Origin: an uncultured virus (IMG/VR IMGVR_UViG_3300006621_000005)
Taxonomy: Duplodnaviria > Heunggongvirae > Uroviricota > Caudoviricetes
Direction: 5' to 3' (one strand)
Virus record (IMG/VR): IMGVR_UViG_3300006621_000005
Length of the DNA: 20,000 bases
Part shown: positions 5,385 through 20,000 of the stretch, piece after piece
Layout: every line of letters begins with the position of its first letter
How positions within the stretch are numbered: the first letter of the stretch is position 1
Position numbers and translations under genes: made by a program
The notes under the pieces: model-generated
Told to the model about the DNA's origin: nothing
Database searches by the model: none
What the model saw: only the letters and a program-made list of their open reading frames with translations

Positions 5385-7025
5385 ATGGGTTCATTAAAAC
5401 TACAATCTTTTGAAGATTTCGCTAATGCTTCTGCTGAAGCAGCAAAGATGAAATTAGAAGAAGAACAAAAAGCAGCTCGTACAGAGTCAGCTTATCAATT
5501 CGAAACATTATTATCTGAGTTCGGCGTTACATCTGTAAAAGATTTAAACGAAGAAGACAGAAACAAATTTTTTGCTAAGCTAGGTACTTCTGAAGTATCT
5601 GAGTCTTTAGCAGTTATCGAGGAAGGTACCAGATCACAAGTTGGTATTATTTCTAAAAGAGGAAAAATAGAGTCAGTGTATATGCACTACGATGGTTATC
5701 CAGACCACATGTTACCTACAATTAAGAAAGGTTACATGAACTCCGGAACAGTTAAGTTTTTACTTAAGAAAGGGGGTGGCTCAGGTTTGGAAGCAGATCC
5801 AAGTAAGATTAATTTCTACGGAGATAAAACAACTCTAAAAGGTGACGCTAAGAAAATCGACGATTATATTTCTGATGCTAGCGATAGAGCAGGAGCAGAA
5901 TTCGTTTACCTATTTGATGAAAGAGATGGCAAATGGTATATGGCAGATGTATATGGAGATAAAGAATTAATTCCAGCATTTGAGTCACTAATTATTAATG
6001 AAGCATTTAAACCAAGTAAAGGTAATGCAAGAGACGCTAAGAAAGTTTCGAAGTTTTTGAACACATTCTTCATGAAGCATTCTGCAATTGCAAACTCTGA
6101 TAGCTTTTTAGGTGCTTGTAGATACCTATTAGCTGAAGCCCTAACTGACGCTAACTTCCACTCATATAGAGATCCGGTAAGTAAAGCACTTGGTGGTAAG
6201 ATTGCTACTATTATGGTAGAAATTGATAACCTAGGTGGTATGGCAATTCCAGTTGGTAAGAAAACAATCCTTAACCTATTAGATGAACATTACTCTGGTC
6301 TAGCTAATGCAGCTGGATGGTCAGGTNNTTGGTATCGTTGAAGGTATGGCATTATTCTTAGATGGATTTGGTTATTCTCAACCAGCACAAAAGATCGTAG
6401 ATGCATTTGAATTAATCTGGGCTAATGAGTCTGTGATGAATGAAGGTAATGCTTTCTTAGCTGCAAGAGCTAAAGCAATTGAAGAAGATGCAGCAGAGTT
6501 TGAATTCAACGGTAAAACTTATCCTGTAATTAAAGAGGAAGTTGAACTAGAAGAAGGAAATGAATTTGGTGCTGCAAGAGCAAAAGCTATCGCAGATGGA
6601 GAAGATGAATTTGAAGTTGATGGTGAGAAATACCCAGTAACTAAAGTTGACAAAGAAGATAAAGAAAACGCTGAAGAATTTGTTGAAGAAGCTGAAGAAG
6701 AAGTTGAAGAAGGTAATGCCTTCGGTGCTGCAAGAGCAGAAGCAATTGCAAAAGGCGAAAAGACTTTTAAAGTTGGCGATGAAGAGTATGACGTAGAAGA
6801 CGTTGATGCTGATGACAAAGAGAACGCAGAAGAATTTGTAGAAGAAGCTGAAGAGGTTTCTGAAGCAGAAGTAAAATCGGATGAAGACTTTAAAGAGTAT
6901 GCATTNNNNNNNNNNNNNNNNNNNNNNNNNNNNNNNNNNNNNNNNNNNNNNNNNNNNNNNNNNNNNNNNNNNNNNNNNNTGACTATGGTGCAGCAGTTGG
7001 TGCATTACAATCATCATTAGGATAA
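5385..7025 (+). CDS. Putative capsid-internal/core polyprotein (single gene; split by assembly gaps in the track)
   Basis: The track ORFs 5385-6341 and 6307-7020 join if the NN at 6327-6328 is one base (AAGWSG-I-GIVEGMA). After the N gap 6906-6979 the natural ending is DYGAAVGALQSSLG-stop at 6981-7025. Features: N-terminal SFEDF targeting-like peptide, linkers ESLAVIEE, ESLIINE and ESVMNE, an embedded GTRS...YMHYDGYP domain, three EGNxFxAARAxAI repeats and Glu-rich tracts. Confidence 0.7.
6442..6860 (+). repeat. Three in-frame copies of an EGN(A/E)FxAARA(K/E)AI...F(E/K)(F/V)xG(K/E/D)xYxV module
   Basis: Copies begin at about 6442, 6553 and 6709. Copies 2 and 3 form a 156-nt (52 aa) tandem duplication that includes DKENAEEFVEEAEE. 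Confidence 0.85.
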
Positions 7026-7044: not shown

Positions 7045-8304
7045 ATGAAGAAACTATTTACATTTAAAGAATTCTTAAACGAAAAAGTCCAGGTAAACAA
7101 CTTGGACAATTTCGTATTTGAAGGTGGGGCTGCTGGCCACATGATGCATCCATTCGATGACCACTCATTAACATTTGCTGATTTCAAAACTATTGTAAGA
7201 TCTGCTCTACAAGGAGGTCTTGATTTTGAAGAGACTCCAACTGAAAAGACAGATGGCCAGAATGTATTTGCAACTGTAAAGGATGGTAAAGCAATGTTCG
7301 CTAGAAATAAGGGACAATTAGCAAACCCACTCGACTTAAATGGTATTATTAAGATGTTCACTGGCCACGCTTCAAAGCTGGTTGAAGAAACATTCATCTT
7401 TGCTGCTAAAGATCTAGCAGAAGCGCTACCAAAGCTTAAGGACCAATCTGTATTCATGGATGGTAACTCATTTATCAACATGGAGCTCATTTACTCTAAG
7501 AATCCTAATGTAATCTATTATGACAGAGATGTTATTCAATTCCACGGTATGAAAGTTACTGATGGNNNNNNNNNNNNNNNNNNNNNNNNNNNNNNNNNNN
7601 NNNNNNNNNNNNNNNNNNNNNNNGATGTGCAAAAGACCTTTACAATAATTCCCCCTCAAATTTTAAAGCTAGGAAAAGATATTAACTTTGATGAGAGAGT
7701 CGGCTATTACGAAAAGGCGATAGATAAACTAAGAGATACTTATAGTCTATCAGATCAAGATGAGGTTAAAATGTATCACGAGGCTTGGTGGAGAAACCAA
7801 ATCGAAGAGAACTTTGGGGATTTAGACCCAGCATTAAAAGAGGGACTTTTATTAAGATGGGCATATTTAGATAAGAAGACTCTAAATATGAGAGAGTTAA
7901 AGAAGGCAGTTACTCCAGAACAAGCAAAAGCCGTCAAAGATTTTGATGGTCAAAGAAACAAGAAGTATAAAGAAAACATTCTACCTTTCGAAAACCTATT
8001 TTTAGAATTAGGTGCAGATGTTTTAAAGAACGTTTCTAATTTTGTTGCCGCTAATCCAGAAGCTGAGAAGGCAAGATTACATAAGCAGATTAGAACTGAG
8101 GCTGATAAGGTTAAAAAGAATGGCGATCTAAAACAGATCGAGAAGGTAGAAAAAGAATTAAAGAGACTAGAAGGTATTGGCGGTATTGAATCAATCATTC
8201 CAACAGAAGGTTTAGTCTTTAAATACAATGGTAAAACATTCAAGTTAACTGGAACTTTTGCCGCTATTAACCAGTTAATGGGTATTATTAAATACGGTAG
8301 ATAA
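7045..8304 (+). CDS. ATP-dependent ligase-fold (RNA-ligase-like) nucleotidyltransferase with capsid-targeting-like N-terminus
   Basis: Motif I EKTDG, III-like NMELI, IV EGLVFK, V FKLTG; N-terminus MKKLFTFKEFLNE; conserved-looking EGGAAGHMMHPFD. Contains the N gap 7566-7623. Confidence 0.7.
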   Translation: MKKLFTFKEFLNEKVQVNNLDNFVFEGGAAGHMMHPFDDHSLTFADFKTIVRSALQGGLDFEETPTEKTDGQNVFATVKDGKAMFARNKGQLANPLDLNGIIKMFTGHASKLVEETFIFAAKDLAEALPKLKDQSVFMDGNSFINMELIYSKNPNVIYYDRDVIQFHGMKVTDXXXXXXXXXXXXXXXXXXXXDVQKTFTIIPPQILKLGKDINFDERVGYYEKAIDKLRDTYSLSDQDEVKMYHEAWWRNQIEENFGDLDPALKEGLLLRWAYLDKKTLNMRELKKAVTPEQAKAVKDFDGQRNKKYKENILPFENLFLELGADVLKNVSNFVAANPEAEKARLHKQIRTEADKVKKNGDLKQIEKVEKELKRLEGIGGIESIIPTEGLVFKYNGKTFKLTGTFAAINQLMGIIKYGR

Positions 8305-8313
8305 TAAACAATT

Positions 8314-10173
8314 ATGGCATTACAAAACTTAAAAACATATTTCGAAGGAGCTAACACTGCAGACGTTGATAAACTTCTCAACCACAAATGTATTGTGACA
8401 GAGAAAATTAACGGCTCATCTTTTCATGCAAGAAGACAAGGTACTGATTTTGCGTACTACAAATCTGGTTCAAAGCAACAGATGGATATAGTAGACCGTA
8501 CAATTGTCAGATATTATGAGAATGCAATTCGCCACTTTAAATCAGTTTCTAAAGATGTTATAGAGGATATGCCATTTGACTGGAAATTCGGATTTGAATA
8601 TTTAGGTGATAATAAAACAATTGATGTTGAGTACGATATTTTACCAGAATCAAATTTAATATTAACACATATACAAGTTTTACAACCATCTAATCCTAAT
8701 AAAGTTAGAAAGGTAATTAGAGATAGTAAGATACTTAATAAGTGGGCAGACAAACTAGGTGTTACAAAACCACCTATATTATTTGAAGGCTTACTTGACT
8801 CTGGCCAAAAAGACAGGTTAAAACAAATTCTTGCAATGTCAATTAATGAATTTGAACAGACGTTTGAAGACTTTGAAAAGCCATCTTTTACAAGAACATT
8901 ATTCGGCATCTTCAATGAGAATATGAAGCAGTCTGCTTTAATGAATGATCTTTCAAAAGACGTTGCAGGGTTTATTGTTAATTTTCATGACGGAACAGAA
9001 TTACAATCTTTTAAATTAGAGAAGTTTAATAAAAAACCGATGGATCCAAGAAAACCATCAGATATGTATCAAATTACAATTTTAGATGTTGTAGAACATT
9101 TATCACAATTTGATTTTTCATCAATAGAATTAAAAGAGGAAAATGCTGATAGAAGATATTTAGAATTAATGTCATCTATTTTTAATAATTATGTAGAAAA
9201 AAATGCTACAAAATATATTGGAGCTAAATTTGACTCTGCTGATTTTTCTGAATCTCCAATGTTTGAATTAAACCACAAGTTTATTCAAAATGAAAAGACA
9301 CTTACTTTAGTACAAGATAAAATTTTATCTGAGTTATTTAAGATCGTACTAGGCTCTTTTAGAAAAAAGAGAACTAAAGAAACAGATCTTATTAATAAAG
9401 ATTTAATGGAGCAAATCAACGAGATTGTTGAAACTATTGAAGGTTTAATAATGGCAAAATCAAATGAATCAGATGTAATGAATTTTAAAAAATATTTATT
9501 AAATCAAAAAATTTCAGCTCAAGTTAGTCCAATTATGGAAGGCTTAACTGTAAAATACAAAAACCAAGGTAAGAAGCCTGTAAATATGTTTGTTGGTAGA
9601 TTCCAGCCATTTACATTAGGCCATGCTAAAGTTATTGAAACTATCTATAAACAAAATGGTTATCCTGTAGTTATCTTTTTAATTAAGTCTAAGACTAAGA
9701 AAGCCGAAGATGCGTTTAAAAGACCTTACGATGAAGATACTCAATTATCAATGTTACAAAAATTAAAGTCTTCATATCCAATTGAAGATGTAAAGATTTT
9801 ACCTACTGCAGCAATTGATAAAATGTTTAACGAATTAAGACCACAATACGAACCAGTATTATGGGGAACTGGAACTGATAGAATGAAAGTTTATAGCTAT
9901 CAAGCAGATAAACAAGAATATAGAGACGATTTAGGTGTAAGAGATGATTTTGGTTTATTTGAAATTCCAAGATCAGGTAAGAATATCTCAGCCACTCAGG
10001 TTAGAAACGCAATGCTGGATAGTGATGAAAAACTATTTAAAAAATTAACTCCTAAAGACATACATGGTATGTATGGAGAACTAAAAATGAAATTAGAAGA
10101 CTCGATGGGTGTTGCTGCAGAATCTGCACAACCAGAATTCCTAACCTTCGATGATTTTTTGAAGAATATATAA
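8314..10173 (+). CDS. Fusion: ligase-fold N-domain + HIGH-type (cytidylyl/NMN adenylyltransferase-like) C-domain
   Basis: N-domain VTEKINGSS (motif I), with a degenerate motif IV (AGFIV) and FKL. C-domain GRFQPFTLGH (HxGH variant), GTDR and ISATQVR, typical of the CTP_transf-like/NMNAT family. The C-terminal FLTFDDFLKN resembles the targeting peptide. Confidence 0.75.
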   Translation: MALQNLKTYFEGANTADVDKLLNHKCIVTEKINGSSFHARRQGTDFAYYKSGSKQQMDIVDRTIVRYYENAIRHFKSVSKDVIEDMPFDWKFGFEYLGDNKTIDVEYDILPESNLILTHIQVLQPSNPNKVRKVIRDSKILNKWADKLGVTKPPILFEGLLDSGQKDRLKQILAMSINEFEQTFEDFEKPSFTRTLFGIFNENMKQSALMNDLSKDVAGFIVNFHDGTELQSFKLEKFNKKPMDPRKPSDMYQITILDVVEHLSQFDFSSIELKEENADRRYLELMSSIFNNYVEKNATKYIGAKFDSADFSESPMFELNHKFIQNEKTLTLVQDKILSELFKIVLGSFRKKRTKETDLINKDLMEQINEIVETIEGLIMAKSNESDVMNFKKYLLNQKISAQVSPIMEGLTVKYKNQGKKPVNMFVGRFQPFTLGHAKVIETIYKQNGYPVVIFLIKSKTKKAEDAFKRPYDEDTQLSMLQKLKSSYPIEDVKILPTAAIDKMFNELRPQYEPVLWGTGTDRMKVYSYQADKQEYRDDLGVRDDFGLFEIPRSGKNISATQVRNAMLDSDEKLFKKLTPKDIHGMYGELKMKLEDSMGVAAESAQPEFLTFDDFLKNI

Positions 10174-10593: not shown

Positions 10594-13314
10594 ATGAAAA
10601 ACTTCGAAGACTTTTTATCGGAAGGCAAGAAACTGCAAATCAAAAGAAAATACACAGAGAACCACCCTGCTCAAACTGTAGGTAAAACTGCTAATGTAAG
10701 AAACGCAGTTCTACAAGCTATCAAAGATGGTGTGGTGACAAGAGAAGAGTTTAATAAGATTCTTTCTGAATTATCTTCTAGTGCAAATCAATGGGCTTCT
10801 AGAAATAGAAAGTATTTCAATGTTTCGGAAGAAGGTATTAAACTTTCAAAGTGGGGTCGTAGAATTCTAGCTGAACTAGATGAAACTCCTAAAGCTGCTG
10901 AGATTAACGAGAAGCTTAAGGTGACTAAAGATAAATGGCCTTATATTGAAATCAAAGATGGTGGTAAAAAGTATCAAATAGAATTTGATGACTATGATGT
11001 TATTGACGATCACGGTAATGAAGGTAAAGATCTTTATTTTATGGGCTATGACCAAAATGGTGATATGTGGGAAATTGATGTCTATGCAGATTATAGAGAT
11101 GAAGTACAAGATATTCATTATGATACTTTAACAAAAGTAGATGAATCAGTAGTTACAGAAAAAGTTAGTTTTGCTCAAATGAAAAAAGATAGTAAAACTA
11201 AAGAGTATAAAGAAGTTTCAAATGCACTCCGCGATGATACAGAAGAGGTTTCAGATATTTGGAATATGTTAGATCCTAAAATGTTTAAATTTACAGAAAG
11301 TGAATTTGAAGATATATTCGATGAGTGGTGGAATACACAGTCATACGATAGTCTTGAAGATTTTTGTAGAAACGGAAGCTTTGAAGACACGCATTCATTA
11401 TATAAACACTTATTGCCATACGTTGTTGAATCTGTAGTTACTGAAAGTGTTGTATATAACAGTAGTAATACAAAACCATCTGCTGCTAAAAACGCTGAAA
11501 AAGAATTTGGGCATTTATTACCTAAACCAAATAAAGGCATTAAACCTTATGTATTTGCAGTAATAAAAACTCCCCGTAGAAATTATAGATTAGCTATTAA
11601 GTCTGGGTCTTACATTGCACATGAGTTCCTTTCAAAGCTTGGAGAGGATAGAATATTAACTGCAGATGATGTGAAGAACGCAGTAAATCATATTATTAGA
11701 CTTAATCCAGATGAATTTAATGAATCTGTAGTTACTGAAGCAAAATTTGTAAAAGACTTTGATAAAGCAGTTCTAGATGCTGAGACAGAAAAAGATGTTT
11801 TAAAAGTATATCCTAAAGCTGAATTTTATGTAGGTAAAATGTCACATTTCTTTGGAGAACTAGAACCAAACTTATTCTTTAAAGCTTATTATGCTAAATA
11901 CTATAAACAAGATACTGGTAAATCAATCAAAGGTGACTTTAAAATCACTACAGTCTACTCAGAAAAAGGTAGCAAATATGTAAACCTATATTTAGAAGAA
12001 TCTGTAGTTACTGAAAACTATGAAGTAATCTATAGCGATGGTATTTCTCAGATGAAAAAATTCAGAAGAGAAACACAAGCTATTGATTTCATGAAAAAAG
12101 AAATAGCTTCTAATAAGAAATTAAGAGATATTGCAGTCTATAAACCAGGTATGCATTCAACTACTCAAACTGAATTAGTTGTTAAATTCTGGGGAGAAGG
12201 ATCTTACTTAGATAATGTTTCTAAAAGAGATAAAGATTTAGCTGCTAAAAAATTACAAGAAAATACTGATATGGAAAATGAAATAAATTTATTCGAATCA
12301 TTTAGCGACTTCGTTGGTGCTAACTTTCTTAACGAGGCAATTAAATCATCTATTTTAAGAACAGTTTTATCAAACGGTAGAGAGGGTAAAGAAGCTAAGA
12401 AAAATCTTTCTAATTTAGCTAAAGGTTTTTACAACCTATCTAAAGTAGCTCTTGATAAAATCGAAGATGAAGACTTTATTGTTAGTAATGACGTATCAAA
12501 GGTATTCAAAAACTACGGCGGCTCAAGCCACGTACTTTTCTTTATCTCAGATAACGAGAAAGAAAATCCATACTATGACCATAACAACGGATCATGGAAT
12601 GACTATAAAATGGTTCCAGGTGGAGGTATTATATTAGCAGCTATGTCTGGTGACAGACAGTTCTATGCTAATGAATGGTCAAGATGGTCAGGTGGTAGAG
12701 CTTGGTCTAAGAATAAAAAAGGTGATGCAGACCAAATAGGTATCAACCACAAATACAGAGGTTGGGGCGCATCGGGTCTTAACAACGGTAAGAGAATTGC
12801 AGAGATGTCTGATAGAGTTATTGTTATTAACCTAGAACTAATTAGACAAAAGTATTCTACTCAACAATTGAGAGATGCAAGAGCAGCAGCTAAAGCAGAT
12901 GCAACGGCATTCAAATCTGATAAAGACTTTAGAGATGCTAACAAAAATAGATACCACAAGATCTTAGCTGATAAAGCAGCAAGCTTACCACTGGATAAAA
13001 TGGTATCAGATGCTATCGATAAACTGGCTAAACAAATCTCAGATGGTTTAAAGAAAGGTGAGAAGACTAGATACCAAGAAATTAAAATTGGTGAATCTCC
13101 AAAAGGTAAAGAAGTAAAAGCAAAAGATGCATCTCAACACATGTCAAATATTTTAGATGACTATGCTAGATATGTAGATTACATTAGACAGGCAGAAGAA
13201 TCTGAAGCTAGATATGGTGAAAGAGAATCTTACTACGAAAGAGAGTCTAAGAACTATGCAAAAAACATTAAAGAAAGAATAAACAAGATCGATAGTTTCG
13301 ACTACGCTTGGTAA
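10594..13314 (+). CDS. Modular capsid-internal polyprotein (906 aa) with four ESVVTE linkers
   Basis: N-terminal MKNFEDFLSE; possible winged-helix first module (..IKLSKWGRRIL); EINE linker near 10900; ESVVTE at 11143, 11428, 11722 and 11998; internal MENEINLFESFSDF...FLNE at 12271. Confidence 0.75.
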   Translation: MKNFEDFLSEGKKLQIKRKYTENHPAQTVGKTANVRNAVLQAIKDGVVTREEFNKILSELSSSANQWASRNRKYFNVSEEGIKLSKWGRRILAELDETPKAAEINEKLKVTKDKWPYIEIKDGGKKYQIEFDDYDVIDDHGNEGKDLYFMGYDQNGDMWEIDVYADYRDEVQDIHYDTLTKVDESVVTEKVSFAQMKKDSKTKEYKEVSNALRDDTEEVSDIWNMLDPKMFKFTESEFEDIFDEWWNTQSYDSLEDFCRNGSFEDTHSLYKHLLPYVVESVVTESVVYNSSNTKPSAAKNAEKEFGHLLPKPNKGIKPYVFAVIKTPRRNYRLAIKSGSYIAHEFLSKLGEDRILTADDVKNAVNHIIRLNPDEFNESVVTEAKFVKDFDKAVLDAETEKDVLKVYPKAEFYVGKMSHFFGELEPNLFFKAYYAKYYKQDTGKSIKGDFKITTVYSEKGSKYVNLYLEESVVTENYEVIYSDGISQMKKFRRETQAIDFMKKEIASNKKLRDIAVYKPGMHSTTQTELVVKFWGEGSYLDNVSKRDKDLAAKKLQENTDMENEINLFESFSDFVGANFLNEAIKSSILRTVLSNGREGKEAKKNLSNLAKGFYNLSKVALDKIEDEDFIVSNDVSKVFKNYGGSSHVLFFISDNEKENPYYDHNNGSWNDYKMVPGGGIILAAMSGDRQFYANEWSRWSGGRAWSKNKKGDADQIGINHKYRGWGASGLNNGKRIAEMSDRVIVINLELIRQKYSTQQLRDARAAAKADATAFKSDKDFRDANKNRYHKILADKAASLPLDKMVSDAIDKLAKQISDGLKKGEKTRYQEIKIGESPKGKEVKAKDASQHMSNILDDYARYVDYIRQAEESEARYGERESYYERESKNYAKNIKERINKIDSFDYAW
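11143..12015 (+). repeat. Array of four 18-bp direct repeats GAATC(T/A)GTAGTTAC(T/A)GAA separated by unique coding modules
   Basis: Copies at 11143-11160, 11428-11445, 11722-11739 and 11998-12015 (the last three identical); periods 285, 294 and 276 nt. Further copies at 15103-15120 and 15520-15537. Confidence 0.9.
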
Positions 13315-13331
13315 TATAACATAATAGAGAT

Positions 13332-13874
13332 ATGAAAAGAATTCCAACATTCGAACAATTTGTAAACGAGAAAGTATATAGACTTTCAGGTTACTATGCA
13401 CAAAAAGGTTTTTTAGGTAAAATCTTTCAAGCCTTTAAGAAGCAAATAGAAAAGGTTCAATATGAAGGTGATGGTGCAGGTACAATTGAAGAAGTCAACA
13501 AAGCATGGGAGAAGTTCCAAGATACTGCTAAGAAAATGATTTTAGATCAAGTTGAAAAAGCAGTTAAAGATATGGACAAAGTCCTTTATGTAACAGCAGA
13601 TTTCTCTAAATGGACCATTGATGAAGTAAACGGTCTTAATCAAGACGGTGGAAGTGAATTATACATTTCATTATTCGATGGAGATCTAATAATCAATGTA
13701 GGTTTTATGGATGACGTTGATGCATCTAAATACAAAAGAAAATTCGATAAAGAGGCATATAACAACTCGGCGATTGCATCAGATGACGATGTAATCTACG
13801 GTGAACTTTCTCCAGTAGGTGATAACAACCTAGAGCTAAGAGGCGGTGAAGTTATGTCAATTGACGCAAAGTAA
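13332..13874 (+). CDS. Putative capsid-internal protein (180 aa)
   Basis: N-terminus MKRIPTFEQFVNE is targeting-like and ends in V-x-E; the remainder is unrecognised. Confidence 0.65.
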   Translation: MKRIPTFEQFVNEKVYRLSGYYAQKGFLGKIFQAFKKQIEKVQYEGDGAGTIEEVNKAWEKFQDTAKKMILDQVEKAVKDMDKVLYVTADFSKWTIDEVNGLNQDGGSELYISLFDGDLIINVGFMDDVDASKYKRKFDKEAYNNSAIASDDDVIYGELSPVGDNNLELRGGEVMSIDAK

Positions 13875-13875
13875 T

Positions 13876-15810
13876 ATGCCATCTGTAAGTAAGTCACAAC
13901 AAAGATTAATGGGCATGGCATACGCTGTTAAATCTGGTGATATGGAAATCTCAGATATTGACCCAGCTTACAGAGATAAAGTAAAATCATTATCAGACGG
14001 AATGACAAAGAAAGACTTAAAGAAATACGCTTCAACAAAACATGATAATTTACCAGAGACGGTAGATGAATCAAGTTTCGAAGTAGGAGCTGGAAGAATA
14101 ACTCCTAGTGCCAACATCGGCGGTATGGGTCCTGTGGTTCTACCTTCTGATGGTGGTGTAGGTTCTGGTGATGTTCCTGCAGTTGCAGATATAGATGATG
14201 ACGAGGAAGAGTCTAAGAAAGACAAAACAAAAAAGAAATTAGAAATGGAGAACTTTAATCTATATACACAATTTAATTCATTTGTAAATGAATCACTTAA
14301 TGAAGCATTTAAGTTCGGTAAGAAAAATCAATACTCAATCGACGATGTAAATGAAGCCTATGGTTTCTGGGGTACATTAGAACTTGCAGGTTTTAAACGT
14401 AGAGAGATTGAAGATAACTGGCATTCTGCAATGGCATGGTTAACTGAATCTTACAAATTCTCTGATGCAGGTGCACTTTATTACTTAAATGCAAAAGCAG
14501 GTAGATGGATTGCAGACCAAGTTATTGAACAAAAAGGTAACAGAGATGTAGTTGATGTATTAGAAGATTATGCTACTCCAGCTGAATGGAAGAAGTGGTC
14601 AAAAGAGTATAACAAGTTTGCTCAAGAAGAAATGATGTCTGAATCAATGGACGAGGCTCTTTTAGAAAATGCTGTTAGAGATTTACATTTTGAAACAGAT
14701 CCTAAGAAGGCTGAAGACATGAAGATTGCAATCGGTGCTTCACAAGGAGAAGTTACAAGAAGAAAACAAATCGAAGGCGGCGAGTATTCATTAAGAAGAT
14801 TTAGAAAAGAAATTAAGTATGGTGATGGTAAAGACCTAGGAGTATTTCTTCCAGGTAGTTATGATGCTGCAACTTCTAAATTAGGAGATGGACCACATAA
14901 GAAAGCTGTTAAGAAAGTAAAATGGAATAGAAAGAAATATGACCAATGGCTTGAAGATGTTGCATCAAACGATGGTTGGAAGAACGCATTTGATATGGCA
15001 CAAAATGCTAAACACGAACCAGGTCTATTACAATGGGCTAAGAAAGAATTTAGAGGTGAAGATGTAATGCAAAGAATCCAATGGGATATTGAAGCTTTCG
15101 CAGAATCAGTAGTTACTGAGGCAAAAGCAGTAAAACGTTTTGATAAAAAACTTATAGACACTAATTTTCAAGTTCATCAAGAAGATACACTAAAAACAAT
15201 CTATAAAGGATTATCTGTTACTGTTGACTACGAAATCGAAAAAAAATGGCGCGAGCTAAAGGGTCTTGAAGAACTTCCGGAGGAATGGAGAGGACAGCAG
15301 ATAGGTAAAGTTTATCAACTAAAAAGAAATTTATATCTTTGGGTAAAAGATATGGAAGATACTAGAAATGGGCGTGCGGCTAGAGATGAGTTTGGTGATG
15401 CACTTTTTAATGTTATGTCAATTTTTACATTCGACGGCGACGAAATCGTTATATTATGGGAAAGACCAGCAAACTTTAAAGTAGCTACTTATGGTGGCCC
15501 TGGAGTTAATCTTCAATATGAATCTGTAGTTAACGAGAAGAAACTAGACAGAGATGATATGATAAAGTGGATTGAGAAGTATATGGACTTTGTAAGAACT
15601 ACTGAAGAGTTCAACGGTTCTCAGGGCGGTATCTGGGTTTCAGGTGAAAATATGGACGAGTATAAGGGTAGAGTAATTTATGACTACTACTCTGAAGACT
15701 ACAAGAACAGAACGTTTGGTGTAGATAACAAGTGGGAAAAGGAACTTAATAAAAAAGGATGGTATAGTGAATGGCATGACGCAGGCACATCCATGATTTG
15801 GCCACTATAA
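13876..15810 (+). CDS. Modular capsid-internal polyprotein (644 aa) with N-terminal DUF3008-like domain
   Basis: The ATG at 13876 follows the previous stop (preferred over 13846). MPSVSKSQQRLMGMAYAVKSG...LKKYASTKHDNLPE is DUF3008-like. Internal MENFNLYTQFNSFVNESLNE at 14245; linkers ESMDEALLE, ESVVTE (15103) and ESVVNE (15520). Confidence 0.72.
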   Translation: MPSVSKSQQRLMGMAYAVKSGDMEISDIDPAYRDKVKSLSDGMTKKDLKKYASTKHDNLPETVDESSFEVGAGRITPSANIGGMGPVVLPSDGGVGSGDVPAVADIDDDEEESKKDKTKKKLEMENFNLYTQFNSFVNESLNEAFKFGKKNQYSIDDVNEAYGFWGTLELAGFKRREIEDNWHSAMAWLTESYKFSDAGALYYLNAKAGRWIADQVIEQKGNRDVVDVLEDYATPAEWKKWSKEYNKFAQEEMMSESMDEALLENAVRDLHFETDPKKAEDMKIAIGASQGEVTRRKQIEGGEYSLRRFRKEIKYGDGKDLGVFLPGSYDAATSKLGDGPHKKAVKKVKWNRKKYDQWLEDVASNDGWKNAFDMAQNAKHEPGLLQWAKKEFRGEDVMQRIQWDIEAFAESVVTEAKAVKRFDKKLIDTNFQVHQEDTLKTIYKGLSVTVDYEIEKKWRELKGLEELPEEWRGQQIGKVYQLKRNLYLWVKDMEDTRNGRAARDEFGDALFNVMSIFTFDGDEIVILWERPANFKVATYGGPGVNLQYESVVNEKKLDRDDMIKWIEKYMDFVRTTEEFNGSQGGIWVSGENMDEYKGRVIYDYYSEDYKNRTFGVDNKWEKELNKKGWYSEWHDAGTSMIWPL

Positions 15811-15883: not shown

Positions 15884-16045
15884 ATGAGCAAGAAAAAGAA
15901 ACATGATGACAAATTGGACTTCAACGGAGGCTGGACCTCTGGTGAGGCTGCACATCATATTTCTAAGAAGATGACACAACAAACAGTGTCTGATAAAACC
16001 AAATACTCAAGAAAGAAAAAACATAAAAATAAAGATGATGAGTAA
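15884..16045 (+). CDS. Small basic protein (53 aa) with ArfA-like KxxYxRKxKH motif
   Basis: Not in the track; hand translation MSKKKKHDDKLDFNGGWTSGEAAHHISKKMTQQTVSDKTKYSRKKKHKNKDDE. Starts just after promoter copy B and overlaps the next start. Confidence 0.6.
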   Translation: MSKKKKHDDKLDFNGGWTSGEAAHHISKKMTQQTVSDKTKYSRKKKHKNKDDE

Positions 16046-16724
16046 AATTGTAGTTATCGGAGATATTCATGGACACGATTCATGGAAGCGAATCATGCAA
16101 GCCAATGGTGATGCAACTGAATTCGTTTTTATTGGTGACTACTTTGACTCGTTCTCTGTTTCACATGCTGAGCAGATCTTTAATTTTAAAGAGATTATTA
16201 AGTGGAAAGAAGCGTCAAAGATTAAAGTTACCATGCTAATTGGTAACCATGACTTTCACTATATGTCAGAATGTGGCGGTAGATATGGTGGCTACAGTTA
16301 TATGTTTGCACCTGAGATTGCTCAACTGTTACGAGAAAATAAAAACCACTTGCAAGTCGCATATTCATTTGGTAGATACTTGTTTTCACATGCAGGTATT
16401 TCTAAAGAATGGTATGAGTCTGTGTTTCCAGATAATAATAGATTGGGTGATGTTGCAGATCAAGTTAATGAGTTATGGAAATGGGATAAAAGACCATTTA
16501 ATCATAGCGGTTTGAATATCTATGGTGACGCTCCGGAAGAAGGGCCAATGTGGATTCGACCTAGGGCTCTAAGAAGTTCACCTCTTCATGATAGTTGGAT
16601 TCAAATTGTTGGACATACTCACATGCAGGTAATTGACTATGATGATAATCATTACTTTGTCGATGCTCTTCCGTATGAGTACATGACAATTGAGAATGGA
16701 GTTCCATTTATTCATAGTCTATAG
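16035..16724 (+). CDS. Calcineurin-like metallophosphoesterase
   Basis: Complete motif set GDIHG, GDYFD, GNHD, SHAG, GHTH. Confidence 0.92.
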   Translation: MMSKIVVIGDIHGHDSWKRIMQANGDATEFVFIGDYFDSFSVSHAEQIFNFKEIIKWKEASKIKVTMLIGNHDFHYMSECGGRYGGYSYMFAPEIAQLLRENKNHLQVAYSFGRYLFSHAGISKEWYESVFPDNNRLGDVADQVNELWKWDKRPFNHSGLNIYGDAPEEGPMWIRPRALRSSPLHDSWIQIVGHTHMQVIDYDDNHYFVDALPYEYMTIENGVPFIHSL

Positions 16725-16773: not shown

Positions 16774-17457
16774 ATGGCTATTTTTAAATGGGGTTGGATG
16801 GATGAATTTACCAATCTAGCTAAAATGCATAAAAACTCTTTAGTTCAAGAGATCTTTATCGATAAATGCTATGAACAGATTAGAGAGGTAAAAGCCGATG
16901 ACGTGGTTCTAGATATAGGAGCAAGTATTGGTCCATTTACATATAGTATTCTTAATAAAAATCCAAAACAAGTTATTTGTGTAGAGCCTTCTCATTTAGA
17001 ACATGAGACTCTAAAGGAAAATGTAGACCAAGATAATGTAACTATTATTGAAAAGGGTATCGGGCCAGTAGACGGTACTATTACTATTAGTGAAGTATTT
17101 GGTGCTAATGGACAAAATATAGAAATACCATCTATTAGGTTCGATACCCTAATAAAAGAAAATAATATTGATAGAATTAACTTCTTAAAAACAGATTGTG
17201 AAGGAGGAGAATATGATATTTTTAACGTCGAGAATTTATTTTGGATAAAAGATAATGTAGATTTTGTAGTCGGTGAGTGGCATTTAAATACACCAGAGAC
17301 TAAAGAAAAATTTAGACAGTTTAGAGATTTATATCTTAAACTTTTCACTAACCATGAAGTTTATGCAATAGACGGTACAGATATTAAATGGAATCTATGG
17401 AACGAACGTTTCTTAGAATATTACAATGAAGTTATTGTCCATATTAATATTAATTAG
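16774..17457 (+). CDS. FkbM-family SAM-dependent methyltransferase
   Basis: VLDIGASIG (motif I), VEP, FLKTDCEGGEYDI (FkbM KxDxEGxE signature). Confidence 0.88.
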   Translation: MAIFKWGWMDEFTNLAKMHKNSLVQEIFIDKCYEQIREVKADDVVLDIGASIGPFTYSILNKNPKQVICVEPSHLEHETLKENVDQDNVTIIEKGIGPVDGTITISEVFGANGQNIEIPSIRFDTLIKENNIDRINFLKTDCEGGEYDIFNVENLFWIKDNVDFVVGEWHLNTPETKEKFRQFRDLYLKLFTNHEVYAIDGTDIKWNLWNERFLEYYNEVIVHININ

Positions 17458-17510: not shown

Positions 17511-17846
17511 ATGAGCAAGAACATTCTAAAAACAGCAGACGAAATTATTAACAACAGATCCGAAGAGAAAGAACGTATGTACGGTCCTTTCGAAGAAGGC
17601 ATGAGACGTGCCGCGATGATCTGTTCAGGAATGACCGGCAAAGAATGGTCAGGTTCCGATATGTATGCAGCGCTTGTCGCACTTAAATTAAGCAGACATT
17701 CTTACAACTATAAAGAAGATAATCTTCTAGACGCTGTCGCATATATCGGTGGCCTTGATAATTATATTAAGAAGTATGGCTATGGTGAAACTGAAAAGCC
17801 AATTAATTTAACTGACGCAGACGCTGGATATGGAGACAAACAATAA
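17511..17846 (+). CDS. DUF6378-like all-alpha protein (predicted MazG-like nucleotide pyrophosphohydrolase)
   Basis: NIL..A.EII..R....YG.F.....R.A.I.S...G......D.....V.LKLSR......EDNLLD...Y pattern characteristic of DUF6378. Confidence 0.7.
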   Translation: MSKNILKTADEIINNRSEEKERMYGPFEEGMRRAAMICSGMTGKEWSGSDMYAALVALKLSRHSYNYKEDNLLDAVAYIGGLDNYIKKYGYGETEKPINLTDADAGYGDKQ

Positions 17847-18906
17847 CCTAGTCTATTTTACAGATCTAGAGAAAGATACTAATATACGTGTCGGTATTTC
17901 TGCACTAGTTGGAAAACTTAGTAGCAAACTAACTTCACATAAATCTGGATGGGCATTCCATCTAGCAAATCAATTAAAACATGCTGGTTACTCCAGTGTT
18001 TCTGTAATTACAGATAACTCAGCTTGGAAGGCAGACGATTTCGACGTGATTCTTATTGAACATGGTATGGAATTCAAAGGCAATTTCAATATCTTCGGTG
18101 GGGCGAACGATGACTTATACCATCAAATCATTAGAATGTTCGCTCCCGGTATACGGATGTATTCGCTCCACCATGATATGCCTTGTGTAGGTACTCTAAT
18201 TGAGAAGCGTTTAAAGACAGGTTCAGATCTTTTTAAAACCCTTGAGGTGCAAATAGAAGACGCTAAGGCAATCTGCGCTAGTATTCCCAAAGTAGATAAA
18301 ATCCAAAATACAACATCACTTTGTTTTGGAGACTCGCATAGTTTCAGTCAATACACTCCAGGTTATATGACTGATCGCCACGATGGACTAACTCTATTCG
18401 GTACATTAAGAAGAGGTATTCGATCTTATGTACCAGAAAACATTGAGGCACTACGCATCTATCTAGGGAATATAGATATAAGACACCATCTTATGAGACA
18501 GGATAATCCTGCTAAATCTCTAAAAGAAATGGTATCAAATTATGAACAACAATTAATCGATTTAGAAATTGATGATATTGAAGTTATTCAGGCTCTTCCA
18601 ATTGAGAATGAGTCTAGACCTCTACCAAAGACCGGTTACTATAAAGGCACTCCTTTTGCTGGTAGTTGGGCAGAGAGAACTGAACTTGTAAAAGAATTTA
18701 ACAAGTTAGTAGAAGCAATGTGCGAGAGAAATGGATGGTCAACATGGCAACACCCAACAGTCTTTTTAAACTCTTTTGGAGAGTTAACATTCGACGTAAT
18801 GGAGAAGCCTAAGTCAGTTCATATTGCTCGCGAGTATTATCGTTGGGATTTAGCAAAAGATGAACCCAATCAGAAATTAAAGCCAGTCACTCAAGCACTT
18901 TTTTAA
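17830..18906 (+). CDS. Two-domain protein: BGT-like N-domain + SGNH-fold C-domain, putative DNA-modification enzyme
   Basis: The C-half has SGNH-like blocks CFGDSHS (18328), DG, YLGNID (18466) and KSVH (18814). The N-half has DFDVILI...NIFGG...MYSLHHD, resembling T4 BGT DYDRLIV...NFFGG...IYYLFTD (from memory). Confidence 0.55.
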   Translation: METNNNLVYFTDLEKDTNIRVGISALVGKLSSKLTSHKSGWAFHLANQLKHAGYSSVSVITDNSAWKADDFDVILIEHGMEFKGNFNIFGGANDDLYHQIIRMFAPGIRMYSLHHDMPCVGTLIEKRLKTGSDLFKTLEVQIEDAKAICASIPKVDKIQNTTSLCFGDSHSFSQYTPGYMTDRHDGLTLFGTLRRGIRSYVPENIEALRIYLGNIDIRHHLMRQDNPAKSLKEMVSNYEQQLIDLEIDDIEVIQALPIENESRPLPKTGYYKGTPFAGSWAERTELVKEFNKLVEAMCERNGWSTWQHPTVFLNSFGELTFDVMEKPKSVHIAREYYRWDLAKDEPNQKLKPVTQALF

Positions 18907-18910
18907 AAAA

Positions 18911-19075
18911 ATGAAAAAGCTTTGGAAGTACTGGGCAAGAGCGCTTGGTGAAAAGGTCGGAGAAGACGATAAAAAGGCAGACGCTGTTGCGATATTTAGA
19001 ACACTTATTATTTTACAAGCTGTAATTTGTAACGTATTAATTGTTTGGAATATCTTAAGAAAATGGAATAATTAA
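18911..19075 (+). CDS. Small membrane protein of a family common in aquatic T4-like phages (54 aa)
   Basis: Hand translation MKKLWKYWARALGEKVGEDDKKADAVAIFRTLIILQAVICNVLIVWNILRKWNN; WxxWAxALGEK...AD..A..RT + hydrophobic helix pattern. Confidence 0.7.
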   Translation: MKKLWKYWARALGEKVGEDDKKADAVAIFRTLIILQAVICNVLIVWNILRKWNN

Positions 19076-19080
19076 ATAAT

Positions 19081-19257
19081 ATGGACATAAATCAAATTAA
19101 AGACAGTGTAGAAATTGCACATAATAGCCTAAAAGTTTACGGAGATGAGAATATCTCTGATAGCTTATTGAAGCATAATCTTAACCACCTCTTATCGGCA
19201 GCTGCTGCAATAGCATCTGAATTAAATGTGAGAGAGGTACTTGGTAATCAAATATGA
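19081..19257 (+). CDS. Hypothetical protein (58 aa)
   Basis: MDINQIKDSVEIAHNSLKVYGDENISDSLLKHNLNHLLSAAAAIASELNVREVLGNQI; tightly packed, with an ATGA overlap into the next gene. Confidence 0.55.
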   Translation: MDINQIKDSVEIAHNSLKVYGDENISDSLLKHNLNHLLSAAAAIASELNVREVLGNQI

Positions 19258-19427
19258 AAACATACAAAATAGAAATAACACCATTAACAGAGACCATGGG
19301 CAGAGAGGATGCTCCATATAATATTGAGTTAACAACAGATAATATTGAATGGTCGATGGAACAATACCAAAGAAACCGAGCAGCTTTCAATTGGGAAATA
19401 CTAGAAGTGAATGAGTACAGCGTGTAA
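19254..19427 (+). CDS. Hypothetical protein (57 aa)
   Basis: MKTYKIEITPLTETMGREDAPYNIELTTDNIEWSMEQYQRNRAAFNWEILEVNEYSV; coupled overlaps at both ends. Confidence 0.6.
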   Translation: MKTYKIEITPLTETMGREDAPYNIELTTDNIEWSMEQYQRNRAAFNWEILEVNEYSV

Positions 19428-20000
19428 AATTAAGACTACGAAATACTATGATGAGTTTATCAGGTATTATGAGTTAGCCTTAGACCAGCAGAAAAAGAGT
19501 AACCTAGGCCATATTGCACATGCCGAATCCGGTATGGATGATCCGTTGATGGAGCAAATTGAGCTGTATGATGTGGTTGAAAGGAAGTATGCTGGGTTTA
19601 GTCAAATCGTGAATGATGTTTTTTACGGTTGGACTGAAGCACATCCGTATTGGTCAAGAATGCAAGCAGGTCTATACACGGAACAGCGCAAAGATGTCGC
19701 TACCAACTGGACTGGAAAACAAGAAGTCTTCGGCCTACCTGAATGGCTCTACATATTCATATTGCATAGAGTATGTGGATCTGCAATTAACTATGCTACT
19801 AAGCCTAGCGGCTATCACAACACGCTACTATTCGACTTGTGGCAATCTGATTCTATAGAACAAATGTGTGAGCAAGTTAAGGCAGCAACCAAGTCATTTT
19901 ACACTTCTGTTGGGTATCAATTCCCAGCATTCCCAAAACCCCCGATTCCACAGCAAAACGAGGAAGTCTTTGTTGGGATGACGGGGTTCGAAGGCCCTCA
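19411..20000 (+). CDS. Putative DNA base-hypermodification enzyme (aGPT-Pplase/amino acid:DNA transferase-like), 5' part; runs off the right edge
   Basis: Not in the track; open for 196 codons: MSTACKIKTTKYYDEFIRYY...DDPLMEQIELYDVVERKYAGFS...EWLYIFILHRVCGS...SGYHNT...YTSVGYQFPAFPKP. The DPL...Y..V.R segment and helix-HR motif recall aGPT-Pplase clade 1; the DUF6378 context is consistent. The ORF is secure; the product call is tentative. Confidence 0.5.
   Translation, partial: MSTACKIKTTKYYDEFIRYYELALDQQKKSNLGHIAHAESGMDDPLMEQIELYDVVERKYAGFSQIVNDVFYGWTEAHPYWSRMQAGLYTEQRKDVATNWTGKQEVFGLPEWLYIFILHRVCGSAINYATKPSGYHNTLLFDLWQSDSIEQMCEQVKAATKSFYTSVGYQFPAFPKPPIPQQNEEVFVGMTGFEGP

What the first reader, a model, noticed from the sequence alone, without database searches (positions are those of the whole stretch)
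17830..18906. Apparent fusion of a T4 beta-glucosyltransferase-like base-flipping domain to an SGNH domain: candidate new DNA acylation/deacylation enzyme
Seen in the sequence: N-half RVGISALVG...HLANQLKHAGYSSVSVIT...DDFDVILIEH...NIFGG(18088)...RMYSLHHD(18177); C-half GDSH, G, GNID, SVH. From memory of T4 BGT: KIAIINMG...DYDRLIVV...NFFGG (base-flipping loop, F72)...KIYYLFTD100 (catalytic base). The F-to-D spacing is 27 here versus 28 in BGT. Instead of the UDP-glucose-binding domain there is an SGNH-like domain, a fold that includes esterases and O-acyltransferases (PatB, AlgX, OatA-C). It sits between DUF6378 and an aGPT-Pplase-like gene. Inference: an enzyme that flips a hydroxymethylated or hypermodified pyrimidine and adds or removes an acyl group, which would be an uncharacterised hypermodification chemistry. 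The alignment was made by eye.
Basis: partly seen in the sequence, partly recalled or inferred. Interest (0 to 1): 0.75.

Follow-up and report, generated by a model that had tools for sequence, protein, structure and literature searches.

The report
Glucosyltransferase-esterase hybrid phage DNA-modification enzyme
This phage gene joins the DNA-binding half of phage T4's DNA sugar-transferase to an esterase-type catalytic half and travels with the genes that make hydroxymethyl-cytosine, so it probably helps build a still-undescribed decoration on the phage's DNA.

Summary
Both domain calls held up. Residues 18-127 are homologous to the N-terminal domain of T4 beta-glucosyltransferase (profile-profile 97.0 %, E 8e-11; reversed and unrelated controls at most 1.5 %). 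In a confident AlphaFold2 model (pLDDT 96.2), residues about 160-350 are an SGNH/GDSL fold (Z up to 13.8).

The downstream gene is fold-similar to an amino-acid:DNA transferase (PaMx11 gp46, Z 9.7) and keeps that enzyme's Glu-x3-Cys motif. In 8 cluster representatives it is fused to this protein.

In distant lineages the gene order is shuffled, yet the protein stays beside a T4 gp42-type dCMP hydroxymethylase and one of two partner sets: a transferase-like protein plus a PLP enzyme, or an HMUDK_hel protein plus myo-inositol-1-phosphate synthase. No 5-hmdU-kinase-like gene was found.

Best reading: the conserved core enzyme of a kinase-less 5-hydroxymethylcytosine hypermodification pathway, probably O-acylating hmC in DNA. 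This chemistry is inferred, not shown.

This scan flagged the same family earlier on other DNA. My paper searches found no description of it. Cultured Aeromonas phages 31, 44RR2.8t and 25 carry it.

The parts
17830..18906 (+). Target ORF, 358 aa (P0001): BGT-N-like domain plus SGNH domain. Member of phrog_13881 and phrog_17781, both 'unknown function'.
17881..18210 (+). Residues 18-127: region homologous to the N-terminal (acceptor/DNA-side) domain of T4 beta-glucosyltransferase. Includes NIFGG (nt 18088-18102) aligned to BGT N70-G74. Conserved S36, H37, N87.
18307..18879 (+). Residues about 160-350: SGNH/GDSL-fold domain. Block I GDSH at nt 18328-18339 (S169). Block III-like GNIDIRHH at nt 18466-18489. 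SVH at nt 18814-18822 (H331). Additional invariant R218, R263, R283, E325.
17511..17846 (+). DUF6378 gene. It overlaps the target's start by 17 nt. It lies directly upstream of the target in 77 of 80 close loci and 19 of 23 distant loci.
19411..19998 (+). First 196 aa of the partner protein 'n405' (cut off by the window end; 90 % identical to the 405-aa L006:9232-10449). HhH-glycosylase-like fold whose best match is the PaMx11 gp46 5-PmdU glycinyltransferase. Fused to the target family in 8 cluster representatives.
16774..17457 (+). FkbM-type methyltransferase. Found at this position only in this window among 81 sequences. FkbM genes recur in the inositol-type cassettes and in the triple fusion P0140.
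16035..16724 (+). Calcineurin-like metallophosphoesterase, kept upstream in the closest relatives. Its membership in the cassette is uncertain.
18911..19427 (+). Three small ORFs (54, 58 and 57 aa) between the target and n405. The first matches phrog_1679 (unknown function).

Best explanation
The protein is a two-domain enzyme that works on phage DNA. Its N-terminal domain descends from the acceptor (DNA and hydroxymethyl-cytosine) side of T4 beta-glucosyltransferase. The UDP-glucose-binding half of that enzyme has been replaced by an SGNH (Ser-His esterase/acyltransferase) domain.

It is the constant core of a hypermodification cassette for 5-hydroxymethylcytosine (hmC), together with a gp42-type dCMP hydroxymethylase and a gp56-type dCTPase. 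It works with a partner transferase: the HhH-fold, Glu-x3-Cys protein encoded just downstream, or in other phages an HMUDK_hel-type protein.

The most likely mechanism has three steps:
1. The BGT-like domain presents hmC in duplex DNA.
2. Ser169 of the SGNH domain carries an acyl group onto the 5-CH2-OH, giving an ester. This ester plays the role of the phosphate installed by the 5-hmdU DNA kinase in thymidine hypermodification.
3. The partner's cysteine attacks C6, expels the ester and adds the final nucleophile. In this phage's type of cassette that is an amino acid, later trimmed by the adjacent PLP enzyme. In the other type it is an inositol derivative.

Shown: both folds/homologies, the conservation of the residues, the gene linkage and the fusions. 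Inferred: the DNA substrate, the acyl chemistry and the order of steps.
For: Domains.
- The N-half is homologous to the BGT N-domain: 97.0 %, E 8.3e-11, with controls at most 1.5 % and BGT-HMM hits only to this family after the true BGTs.
- The AF2 model has pLDDT 96.2 and pTM 0.93.
- The C-half is SGNH. Foldseek gave sialate O-acetylesterase 7pzh at E 4e-5, probability 1.00, target TM 0.63. VIA-align gave Z 13.8 to 9.1 for all 50 rows, almost all GDSL/SGNH esterases, including the O-acetyltransferases PatB and OatA.
- Conservation in 104 members: G167, D168, S169, H170, D216, R218, R263, R283, E325, S329 and H331 are each kept in at least 94 %.

Partner.
- The C-terminal extensions of 8 fused cluster representatives match the downstream gene (blastp E 6e-8 to 5e-50).
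- Its model (pLDDT 86.9) best matches PaMx11 gp46 5-PmdU glycinyltransferase: Z 9.7, 210 residues aligned. The next 14 rows are all HhH glycosylases or related proteins.
- E318 and C322 are nearly invariant. They repeat the Glu243/Cys247 spacing of gp46, whose cysteine attacks C6 (passages read in PMC11472151).

Context.
- The order DUF6378, target, n405 holds in 75 of 80 close loci. The 5 misses all end at the target.
- A gp42-like gene lies beside the target in 13 of 23 distant viral loci and in 12 of 16 loci from metagenome-assembled genomes (MAGs), with differing gene orders.
- All 8 gp42-like proteins aligned have Asp at the T4 D179 column, against Asn in the M6 dUMP hydroxymethylase and in ThyA.
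- A T4 gp56-like dCTPase (33 % identity, E 2e-24) lies three genes downstream in the 88 %-identical locus L006.

No kinase.
- HMUDK_hel was found in 0 of 5 n405-type contigs.
- An M6 gp54-like kinase was found in 0 of 5 records.
- There is no conserved Walker A motif in the HMUDK_hel-type partners.
- A canonical BGT was found in 0 of 5 records.

Open question. Aeromonas phages 44RR, 31 and 25 are reported to have genes 42 and 56 but no glucosyltransferase (passages read in PMC2993671), and they carry this family.
Against: - There is no biochemical data and no identified acyl donor.
- Classical SGNH sequence membership is below threshold. The best Pfam Lipase_GDSL_2 score is 22.3 bits against a cut-off of 32.9, and only 8 of 104 members match at E<=1. 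The window's own protein has no Pfam hit. hhalign against E. coli TesA gave 1.1 %.
- The triad Asp (DxxH) is absent: R, Q or K sits three residues before H331.
- The block III order is G-N-x-D, not G-x-N-D.
- The Ser169-His331 distance was not measured.
- The N-domain fold was not searched on its own, and no BGT appeared in the fold lists, which the SGNH domain fills.
- The top Foldseek row was MiaB, but with TM 0.2.
- No hydroxymethylase lies in the window. Among 15 large n405-type contigs only 2 show a gp42-like gene; 14 of the 15 are fragments.
- The partner shows no sequence-profile similarity to M6 gp51 or gp55. Z 9.7 is modest for a helical protein.
- The partner might dehydrate hmC without any prior activation.
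Confidence: 0.45

Rival explanations
1. The SGNH domain is a hydrolase, not a transferase. The protein flips a modified cytosine and removes an ester-linked group, for example by trimming or proof-reading an O-acyl or O-aminoacyl intermediate, or by unmasking the final modification.
For: Most of the closest structural matches are esterases: sialate O-acetylesterase, PAF acetylhydrolase and GDSL lipases. Hydrolysis is the default SGNH chemistry. The gene context is the same as for the main reading.
Against: The protein is constant across two cassette types whose appended groups differ (amino-acid/PLP against inositol). That fits a shared early step better than a group-specific trimming step. 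Nothing else in the cassette would supply the leaving group, since no kinase was found.
Confidence: 0.2
2. The protein itself installs the final group. The SGNH serine picks up an acyl or aminoacyl group and esterifies the hmC hydroxyl, as in DltD/PatB-type O-acyl transfer. The HhH partner then plays another role, such as DNA targeting or a later rearrangement.
For: O-acyltransferases (PatB, OatA) are among the structural matches. The fusions with the partner are compatible with any two-step order.
Against: The partner keeps the Glu-x3-Cys catalytic signature of enzymes that themselves transfer the nucleophile. An inositol ester is chemically odd for the second cassette type.
Confidence: 0.15
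3. The substrate is not DNA. The enzyme acts on a nucleotide (such as hm-dCMP or hm-dCTP), on a small-molecule donor of the pathway, or on a host envelope sugar or lipid, as many phage SGNH esterases do.
For: Phage SGNH domains in the viral structure library are mostly tail-spike or lipase types. No DNA binding was tested.
Against: The N-domain is homologous to the DNA-acceptor half of BGT. Fusions are to HhH and HMUDK_hel DNA-base enzymes. The gene sits among replication genes upstream of the polymerase, not among tail genes.
Confidence: 0.1

Closest known systems
T4 DNA beta-glucosyltransferase (BGT; Pfam PF09198 T4-Gluco-transf; GT-B fold)
   Same: Homologous N-terminal domain (residues 18-127 against BGT 1-115), including the N-x-F-G-G loop. 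Similar total length (358 against 351 aa). Occurs in T4-like phages that have gene 42.
   Different: The C-terminal UDP-glucose-binding domain, with its invariant G188, R191, R269 and E272, is absent and replaced by an SGNH fold. BGT T99-D100 has no conserved counterpart. Pfam scores are far below the cut-off (best 14.8 against 27 bits).
SGNH/GDSL hydrolases and O-acyltransferases (sialate O-acetylesterase 7pzh/6njc, PAF-AH 1wab, PatB 7tjb/8tlb, OatA 6vjp)
   Same: Fold (Z 9.1-13.8). GDS nucleophile motif after the first strand. A conserved Gly, an Asn/Asp block and a C-terminal His.
   Different: Cytoplasmic phage protein fused to a BGT-type domain. His follows the Ser (GDSH). Block III reads G-N-I-D followed by R-H-H. 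There is no Asp three residues before the His. Extra invariant R218, R223, R263, R283 and E325. Below Pfam thresholds.
Thymidine hypermodification pathways of phages M6, ViI, PaMx11 and PhiW-14 (dUMP hydroxymethylase, 5-HMUDK kinase, aGPT-Pplase2/AADT, PLP decarboxylase; PMC8989533, PMC11472151, passages read)
   Same: A hydroxymethyl-pyrimidine in DNA is elaborated after replication. The partner protein is fold-similar to PaMx11 gp46 and has the Glu-x3-Cys motif. An adjacent PLP enzyme falls in the same PHROG name class as the annotation of M6 gp52.
   Different: The hydroxymethylase is cytosine-type. No 5-HMUDK-like kinase was found; the BGT-N/SGNH protein stands where an activating enzyme would be expected. 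A second cassette type uses myo-inositol-1-phosphate synthase.

Membership tests
T4 beta-glucosyltransferase family (PF09198, GT-B) | Homologous N-terminal (acceptor) Rossmann-like domain | tested here: met
   hhalign A1 against A2: 97.0 %, E 8.3e-11, residues 18-127 against 1-115. Controls at most 1.5 %.
T4 beta-glucosyltransferase family (PF09198, GT-B) | C-terminal UDP-glucose-binding domain with invariant G188/R191/R269/E272 | tested here: not met
   No alignment beyond BGT residue 115. The C-half of the model is an SGNH fold.
T4 beta-glucosyltransferase family (PF09198, GT-B) | Catalytic Asp100 (role recalled from memory; T99-D100 invariant in A2) | tested here: not met
   T99-D100 falls in a gap of the profile alignment. 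Position 116 is D in 15 of 104 members and P in 40 of 104.
T4 beta-glucosyltransferase family (PF09198, GT-B) | Pfam gathering score (27 bits) | tested here: not met
   P0001 has no hit. 3 of 104 members match at E<=1; best 14.8 bits.
SGNH/GDSL hydrolase superfamily | Three-layer alpha/beta/alpha SGNH fold | tested here: met
   VIA-align Z 13.8 (2hsj, 173 residues aligned, rmsd 3.9) down to 9.1 over model residues about 160-347. Foldseek probability 1.00 for GDSL esterases.
SGNH/GDSL hydrolase superfamily | Block I GDS with nucleophilic Ser after the first strand | tested here: met
   G167 98 %, D168 100 %, S169 99 %. Strand 163-167 precedes the motif.
SGNH/GDSL hydrolase superfamily | Block III GxND (oxyanion-hole Asn) | tested here: inconclusive
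   The motif is G213-N214-I215-D216, so the Asn is shifted by one. N is present in 91 of 104 and D in 104 of 104. The geometry was not inspected.
SGNH/GDSL hydrolase superfamily | Block V DxxH (His with an Asp three residues before it) | tested here: not met
   H331 is present in 102 of 104, but position 328 is R, Q or K. The invariant E325 might substitute; this was not tested.
SGNH/GDSL hydrolase superfamily | Ser and His side chains adjacent in the structure | not testable with these tools
   Model coordinates are not exposed to the script machine.
SGNH/GDSL hydrolase superfamily | Pfam gathering score (Lipase_GDSL_2, 32.9 bits) | tested here: not met
   Best member scores 22.3 bits, E 2.1e-4. 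8 of 104 members match at E<=1.
aGPT-Pplase2 / amino-acid:DNA transferase (applies to the downstream neighbour, not the target) | HhH-glycosylase-like fold plus catalytic Glu-x3-Cys | tested here: met
   The top VIA row is 8z2m (PaMx11 gp46), Z 9.7, 210 residues aligned; rows 2-15 are HhH glycosylases or related. E318 and C322 are nearly invariant. gp46 uses Glu243 and Cys247.
aGPT-Pplase2 / amino-acid:DNA transferase (applies to the downstream neighbour, not the target) | Sequence-profile membership | tested here: not met
   No Pfam, PHROG or NCBIfam hit. hhalign against M6 gp51 and gp55 gave at most 0.3 %.
5-HMUDK-dependent thymidine hypermodification system | 5-hmdU DNA kinase present | tested here: not met
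   HMUDK_hel in 0 of 5 n405-type contigs. An M6 gp54-like protein in 0 of 5 records, without a positive control. No conserved Walker A in the HMUDK_hel-type partners.
5-HMUDK-dependent thymidine hypermodification system | dUMP-specific hydroxymethylase | tested here: not met
   The linked hydroxymethylases have Asp at the T4 D179 column (8 of 8), as in T4 gp42. M6 gp58 and ThyA have Asn. MAG-locus copies are 47-64 % identical to T4 gp42.

The most novel reading that the evidence does not exclude
Enzymatic O-acylation of a DNA base. An SGNH serine enzyme, steered by a glucosyltransferase-derived domain, esterifies 5-hydroxymethylcytosine in duplex DNA. This replaces the DNA kinase as the activating step, so that a cysteine-dependent HhH transferase can then hang amino acids (this phage) or inositol derivatives (other phages) on cytosine. 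That would add a new activating chemistry and at least two undescribed hypermodified cytosines, widespread in marine T4-like phages and present in cultured Aeromonas phages.
Probability: 0.35. Interest if true: 0.9.

Novelty: new variant of a known kind. Interest (0 to 1): 0.78.

Why it matters
Known phage routes from hmC are glycosylation, arabinosylation and, per a paper title seen only in a search listing (PMC8670742), another cytosine modification. Known amino-acid additions start from hydroxymethyl-uracil and need a DNA kinase. This family points to a second, kinase-free logic that acts on cytosine.

It is abundant: 957 homologues and 406 clusters at 50 % identity. It is almost confined to phages: only 16 loci, all on MAG contigs, in the genomes of 185,579 species.

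It also makes a question left open in 2010 directly testable. Aeromonas phages 44RR, 31 and 25 have genes 42 and 56 but no glucosyltransferase (PMC2993671), and all three carry this gene.

New DNA-base chemistries matter for phage resistance to restriction and CRISPR, and as tools for labelling hmC.

Tried and rejected
- **GT-B C-domain.** I considered that the C-half might be a divergent GT-B donor domain. Rejected: BGT alignment stops at residue 115, and fold searches return SGNH folds only.
- **Sequence search of solved structures.** Nothing useful: no hit with the single sequence, and one E=1 acetyltransferase hit with the profile.
- **hhalign against E. coli TesA.** 1.1 %, covering only the GDS block.
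- **Sequence-profile tests of the neighbour and the HMUDK_hel-type partner.** Compared with M6 gp51, gp54 and gp55 and with each other; nothing significant. The best was the hel profile against M6 gp55: 9 %, E 0.0035.
- **tblastn of the neighbour against cultured phages.** No match.
- **BGT in the fold lists.** None appeared. Those lists are filled by the SGNH domain, so this says nothing about the N-domain.
- **MiaB as top Foldseek row.** Dismissed: TM 0.2, rmsd 14.
- **Window's own genome.** Not held. The nearest record is a 24-kb fragment with no thymidylate-synthase-family hit.
- **Complex prediction of target plus neighbour.** Not available, so binding is untested.
- **Literature.** Nine answered searches found no description of this family. 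The main text of PMC8670742 has no occurrence of GDSL, SGNH, inositol, aGPT, esterase or DUF.
- **Supplements.** No supplementary files were read, so the supplements of PMC8989533 and PMC8670742 could hold relevant gene lists.
Full report
**The observation.** The window is part of a phage genome. All large ORFs lie on the + strand, and the gene set is replication and nucleotide metabolism. The ORF at 17830-18906 (+) gives a 358-aa protein, P0001. The ORF overlaps the stop of the upstream DUF6378 gene by 17 nt.

**The family.**
- P0001 has no Pfam or NCBIfam hit.
- It matches two PHROGs of unknown function end to end. One of them is a 795-residue profile in which this protein forms the N-terminal 335 residues.
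- The large protein collection holds 957 homologues, all unnamed.
- An exhaustive search finds 406 clusters at 50 % identity.
- Among cultured phages it occurs in 43 records: 38 Aeromonas, 3 Tenacibaculum and 2 Stenotrophomonas. These include the T4-like Aeromonas phages 31, 44RR2.8t and 25.
- Among the genomes of 185,579 prokaryotic species only 16 loci were found, all on contigs of metagenome-assembled genomes (MAGs). The family is therefore essentially viral.

**N-terminal half.**
- A 104-sequence family alignment (A1), compared with the single T4 BGT sequence, gave 79 % probability.
- Compared with a 40-sequence BGT family alignment (A2) it gave 97.0 %, E 8.3e-11, aligning residues 18-127 with BGT 1-115.
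- N87, G90 and G91 fall on N70, G73 and G74, which are invariant in the BGT family.
- Controls: reversed alignments gave 0.1-0.2 %, and unrelated alignments at most 1.5 %.
It found the 43 true BGTs, and the next 17 listed hits were all members of this family (best E 2e-5).
- Three of 104 members also touch Pfam T4-Gluco-transf below threshold, at the same region.

The homology stops at BGT residue 115. BGT's invariant T99-D100 lies in a gap. The domain therefore looks like a retained acceptor-binding module, not a retained glycosyltransferase active site.

**C-terminal half.**
- Sequence evidence alone is weak. Lipase_GDSL_2 or Lipase_GDSL matched 8 of 104 members each at E<=1; the best score was 22.3 bits against a cut-off of 32.9. 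There was one weak language-model lead. There was no match to E. coli TesA.
- The AlphaFold2 model built on A1 is confident: mean pLDDT 96.2, pTM 0.93.
- Foldseek against the PDB returns GDSL/SGNH enzymes with probability 1.00. Examples are sialate O-acetylesterase 7pzh (E 4e-5, target TM 0.63), GDSL lipase 3p94, PAF acetylhydrolase and PatB. The nominal first row, MiaB, has TM 0.2 and is noise.
- An independent all-against-representatives alignment gives Z 13.8 to 9.1 for all 50 rows shown, nearly all covering model residues about 160-347. Almost all rows whose titles name a family are GDSL/SGNH esterases, lipases or O-acetyltransferases (PatB, OatA, Ape1).
- The conserved residues sit where the SGNH blocks are expected: GDS(H) after the first strand, a Gly at 191, G-N-I-D at 213-216 and His331 near the C-terminus.
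- Departures from the classical pattern: no Asp three residues before the His; an Asn shifted by one; and a set of extra invariant basic and acidic residues (H170, R218, H219, H220, R223, R263, R283, E325). These suggest an anionic substrate or donor.

**The downstream gene.**
- The window holds only its first 196 residues. The full 405-aa protein was read from locus L006 (90 % identical).
- It has no Pfam, PHROG or NCBIfam hit and no profile similarity to M6 gp51 or gp55.
- Its model (pLDDT 86.9) has as top structural match the 5-PmdU glycinyltransferase gp46 of phage PaMx11: Z 9.7, rmsd 4.0, 210 residues aligned. The next 14 rows are all HhH DNA glycosylases or the related queuine-salvage enzyme, and Z then drops to about 5.
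- Foldseek alone was not significant (best E 1.1), though its best plausible rows belong to the same superfamily.
- E318, D319, C322 and D323 are nearly invariant in this family. gp46 uses Glu243 and Cys247 at the same spacing, with the cysteine attacking C6 of the pyrimidine (passages read in PMC11472151).

**Fusions.**
- Thirteen longer cluster representatives were examined. In eight (P0127, P0153, P0157, P0166, P0197, P0242, P0270, P0228), the extra C-terminal region is homologous to this downstream protein (blastp E 6e-8 to 5e-50).
- Two others share a different extra domain that matches Pfam HMUDK_hel, the helical domain of 5-hmdU DNA kinases. These are P0179, the form found in Aeromonas phage 31, and P0140. 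P0140 also carries an FkbM methyltransferase at its N-terminus.
- The HMUDK_hel-type proteins have no conserved Walker A motif, but they do have a conserved Glu-x3-Cys.

**Gene context.**
- In the 80 closest viral loci (60-96 % identity), DUF6378 precedes the gene in 77. The 405-aa protein follows in 75; the five misses all end at the target. A PLP-enzyme gene follows in 58; the 22 without it all end within about 2.8 kb of the partner's start. Then come a MazG-type NTP pyrophosphatase and the B-family polymerase (Pfam and PHROG names).
- That pyrophosphatase is 33 % identical to T4 gp56 dCTPase over its full length (E 2e-24).
- In 23 more distant viral loci (38-54 % identity), three keep the 405-aa partner.
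- Among the 23, a gp42-like hydroxymethylase lies just upstream in 13, DUF6378 in 19, a roughly 396-aa ORF directly downstream in 19, and an HMUDK_hel-type protein in 18. The 396-aa ORF is myo-inositol-1-phosphate synthase (Pfam E about 1e-22) in all three copies I scanned.
- In the 16 MAG loci (28-41 % identity) gene order differs between lineages but content does not. A gp42 homologue 47-64 % identical to T4 gp42 is present in 12. Six (or seven, counting a fragment) have the 405-aa-type partner, and six have the PLP enzyme. Six have the HMUDK_hel partner together with inositol-phosphate synthase and a 130-aa ORF; two more truncated loci have the synthase.
- Retention through shuffling argues for functional linkage.

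**Which base.**
- In an alignment of eight gp42-like proteins, all have Asp at the column of T4 D179. The eight are T4 gp42, Aeromonas phage 31 gp42 and six from these loci. The M6 dUMP hydroxymethylase and a ThyA have Asn there.
- That this residue sets cytosine against uracil preference is recalled from the T4 literature; I did not read it here.
- No canonical BGT was found in five records, including two complete genomes of 256 and 293 kb and Aeromonas phages 31 and 25.
- No HMUDK_hel was found in five n405-type contigs, and no M6 gp54-like kinase in five records, the latter without a positive control.

**Limits of the linkage for this window.**
- No hydroxymethylase lies within the 20 kb.
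- The window's genome is not held.
- Of 15 large contigs with the 405-aa partner type, only two show a gp42-like gene. One of the two is the only complete genome among them; the other 13 are 17-64 % complete. For this phage the hmC link therefore rests on relatives and on the gp56-like gene.

**Mechanism.** The protein is the one constant between two cassette types that differ in what they would append: amino acid plus PLP enzyme, or inositol phosphate plus methyltransferase. It is fused to either partner type. It carries a DNA-acceptor-type domain and an intact-looking Ser/His site. No kinase is present to provide the leaving group that the gp46-type mechanism needs. I therefore consider it most likely that it esterifies the hydroxymethyl group of hmC in DNA, and that the partner displaces that ester. 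This priming idea also appears in earlier notes of this scan on related DNA, and I reuse it. I tested the domain calls, the fusions, the contexts and the kinase absence myself. The chemistry itself is untested.

I put about 0.8 on 'DNA hmC-pathway enzyme with BGT-N plus SGNH domains working with the HhH partner', and about 0.45 on the whole statement including acyl activation. The rivals are a deacylase, a final O-acyl transferase, and a non-DNA substrate.

**Known work.** Nine answered paper searches found no description of the family. Petrov et al. 2010 (PMC2993671, passages read) state that Aeromonas phages 44RR, 31 and 25 encode genes 42 and 56 but lack glucosyltransferase genes. For other gene-42 phages that lack glucosyltransferases (RB69, JS98), the same passage leaves open whether further hmC modifications exist. 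The Aeromonas phages carry this family. In phage 31 it is fused to the HMUDK_hel domain and preceded by a sodium:solute symporter. In phage 25 it is preceded by a UDP-galactopyranose mutase.

**Verdict.** The system is a new variant of the known hypermodification logic, with a possibly new activating chemistry.

Noticed in passing
window 10594-13314 and 13846-15810 (+): Two large ORFs (906 and 654 aa) carry a repeated peptide, ESVVTE: four copies in the first, and one copy plus an ESVVNE variant in the second. Two copies are followed by a similar EAK.VK.FDK stretch. This could be a repeated linker or a protease-cleavage motif between duplicated modules.
   Followed up: no
window 6307-7020 (+): The ORF contains tandem repeats of about 40 aa (EGNAFGAARAKAIA...). 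An N-masked run interrupts it. Masked runs lie at 3892-3893, 4253-4307, 6327-6328, 6906-6979 and 7566-7623.
   Followed up: no
window 16774-17457 (+): An FkbM-type methyltransferase sits two genes upstream of the target. No homologue was found at that position in any of the 80 close loci. L006 instead has one between the dCTPase-like gene and the polymerase. This suggests sporadic gain of an O-methylation step.
   Followed up: partly
L118:9178-10371, L124:9061-10251, L136:7325-8512 and 16 further loci: In a second cassette type, a phage-encoded myo-inositol-1-phosphate synthase lies directly beside the target's homologue. It comes with a conserved ORF of about 130 aa, often an FkbM methyltransferase, and an HMUDK_hel-type protein.
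   Followed up: partly
L001 (Aeromonas phage 31) 4468-5991; L002 (Aeromonas phage 25) 3764-5945: A sodium:solute symporter lies directly upstream of the fused 795-aa homologue in phage 31. A UDP-galactopyranose mutase plus a 358-aa protein of unknown function lie upstream of the homologue in phage 25. These may be hints about which group each phage appends.
   Followed up: no
window 17511-17846 (+) and homologous positions in the loci: DUF6378 is almost always the gene immediately before the target. In distant loci it follows the hydroxymethylase directly. Its role is unknown. PHROG labels its relatives 'phosphofructokinase', which looks like a carried-over annotation.
   Followed up: partly
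L124:12831-14980: Just after the cassette in one distant phage lie a C5-cytosine DNA methyltransferase and an NAD-dependent sugar epimerase/dehydratase.
   Followed up: no
window 8314-10173 (+): A 619-aa protein has a C-terminal cytidylyltransferase-like (nucleotidyltransferase) domain. Its N-terminal 420 residues have no family match.
   Followed up: no
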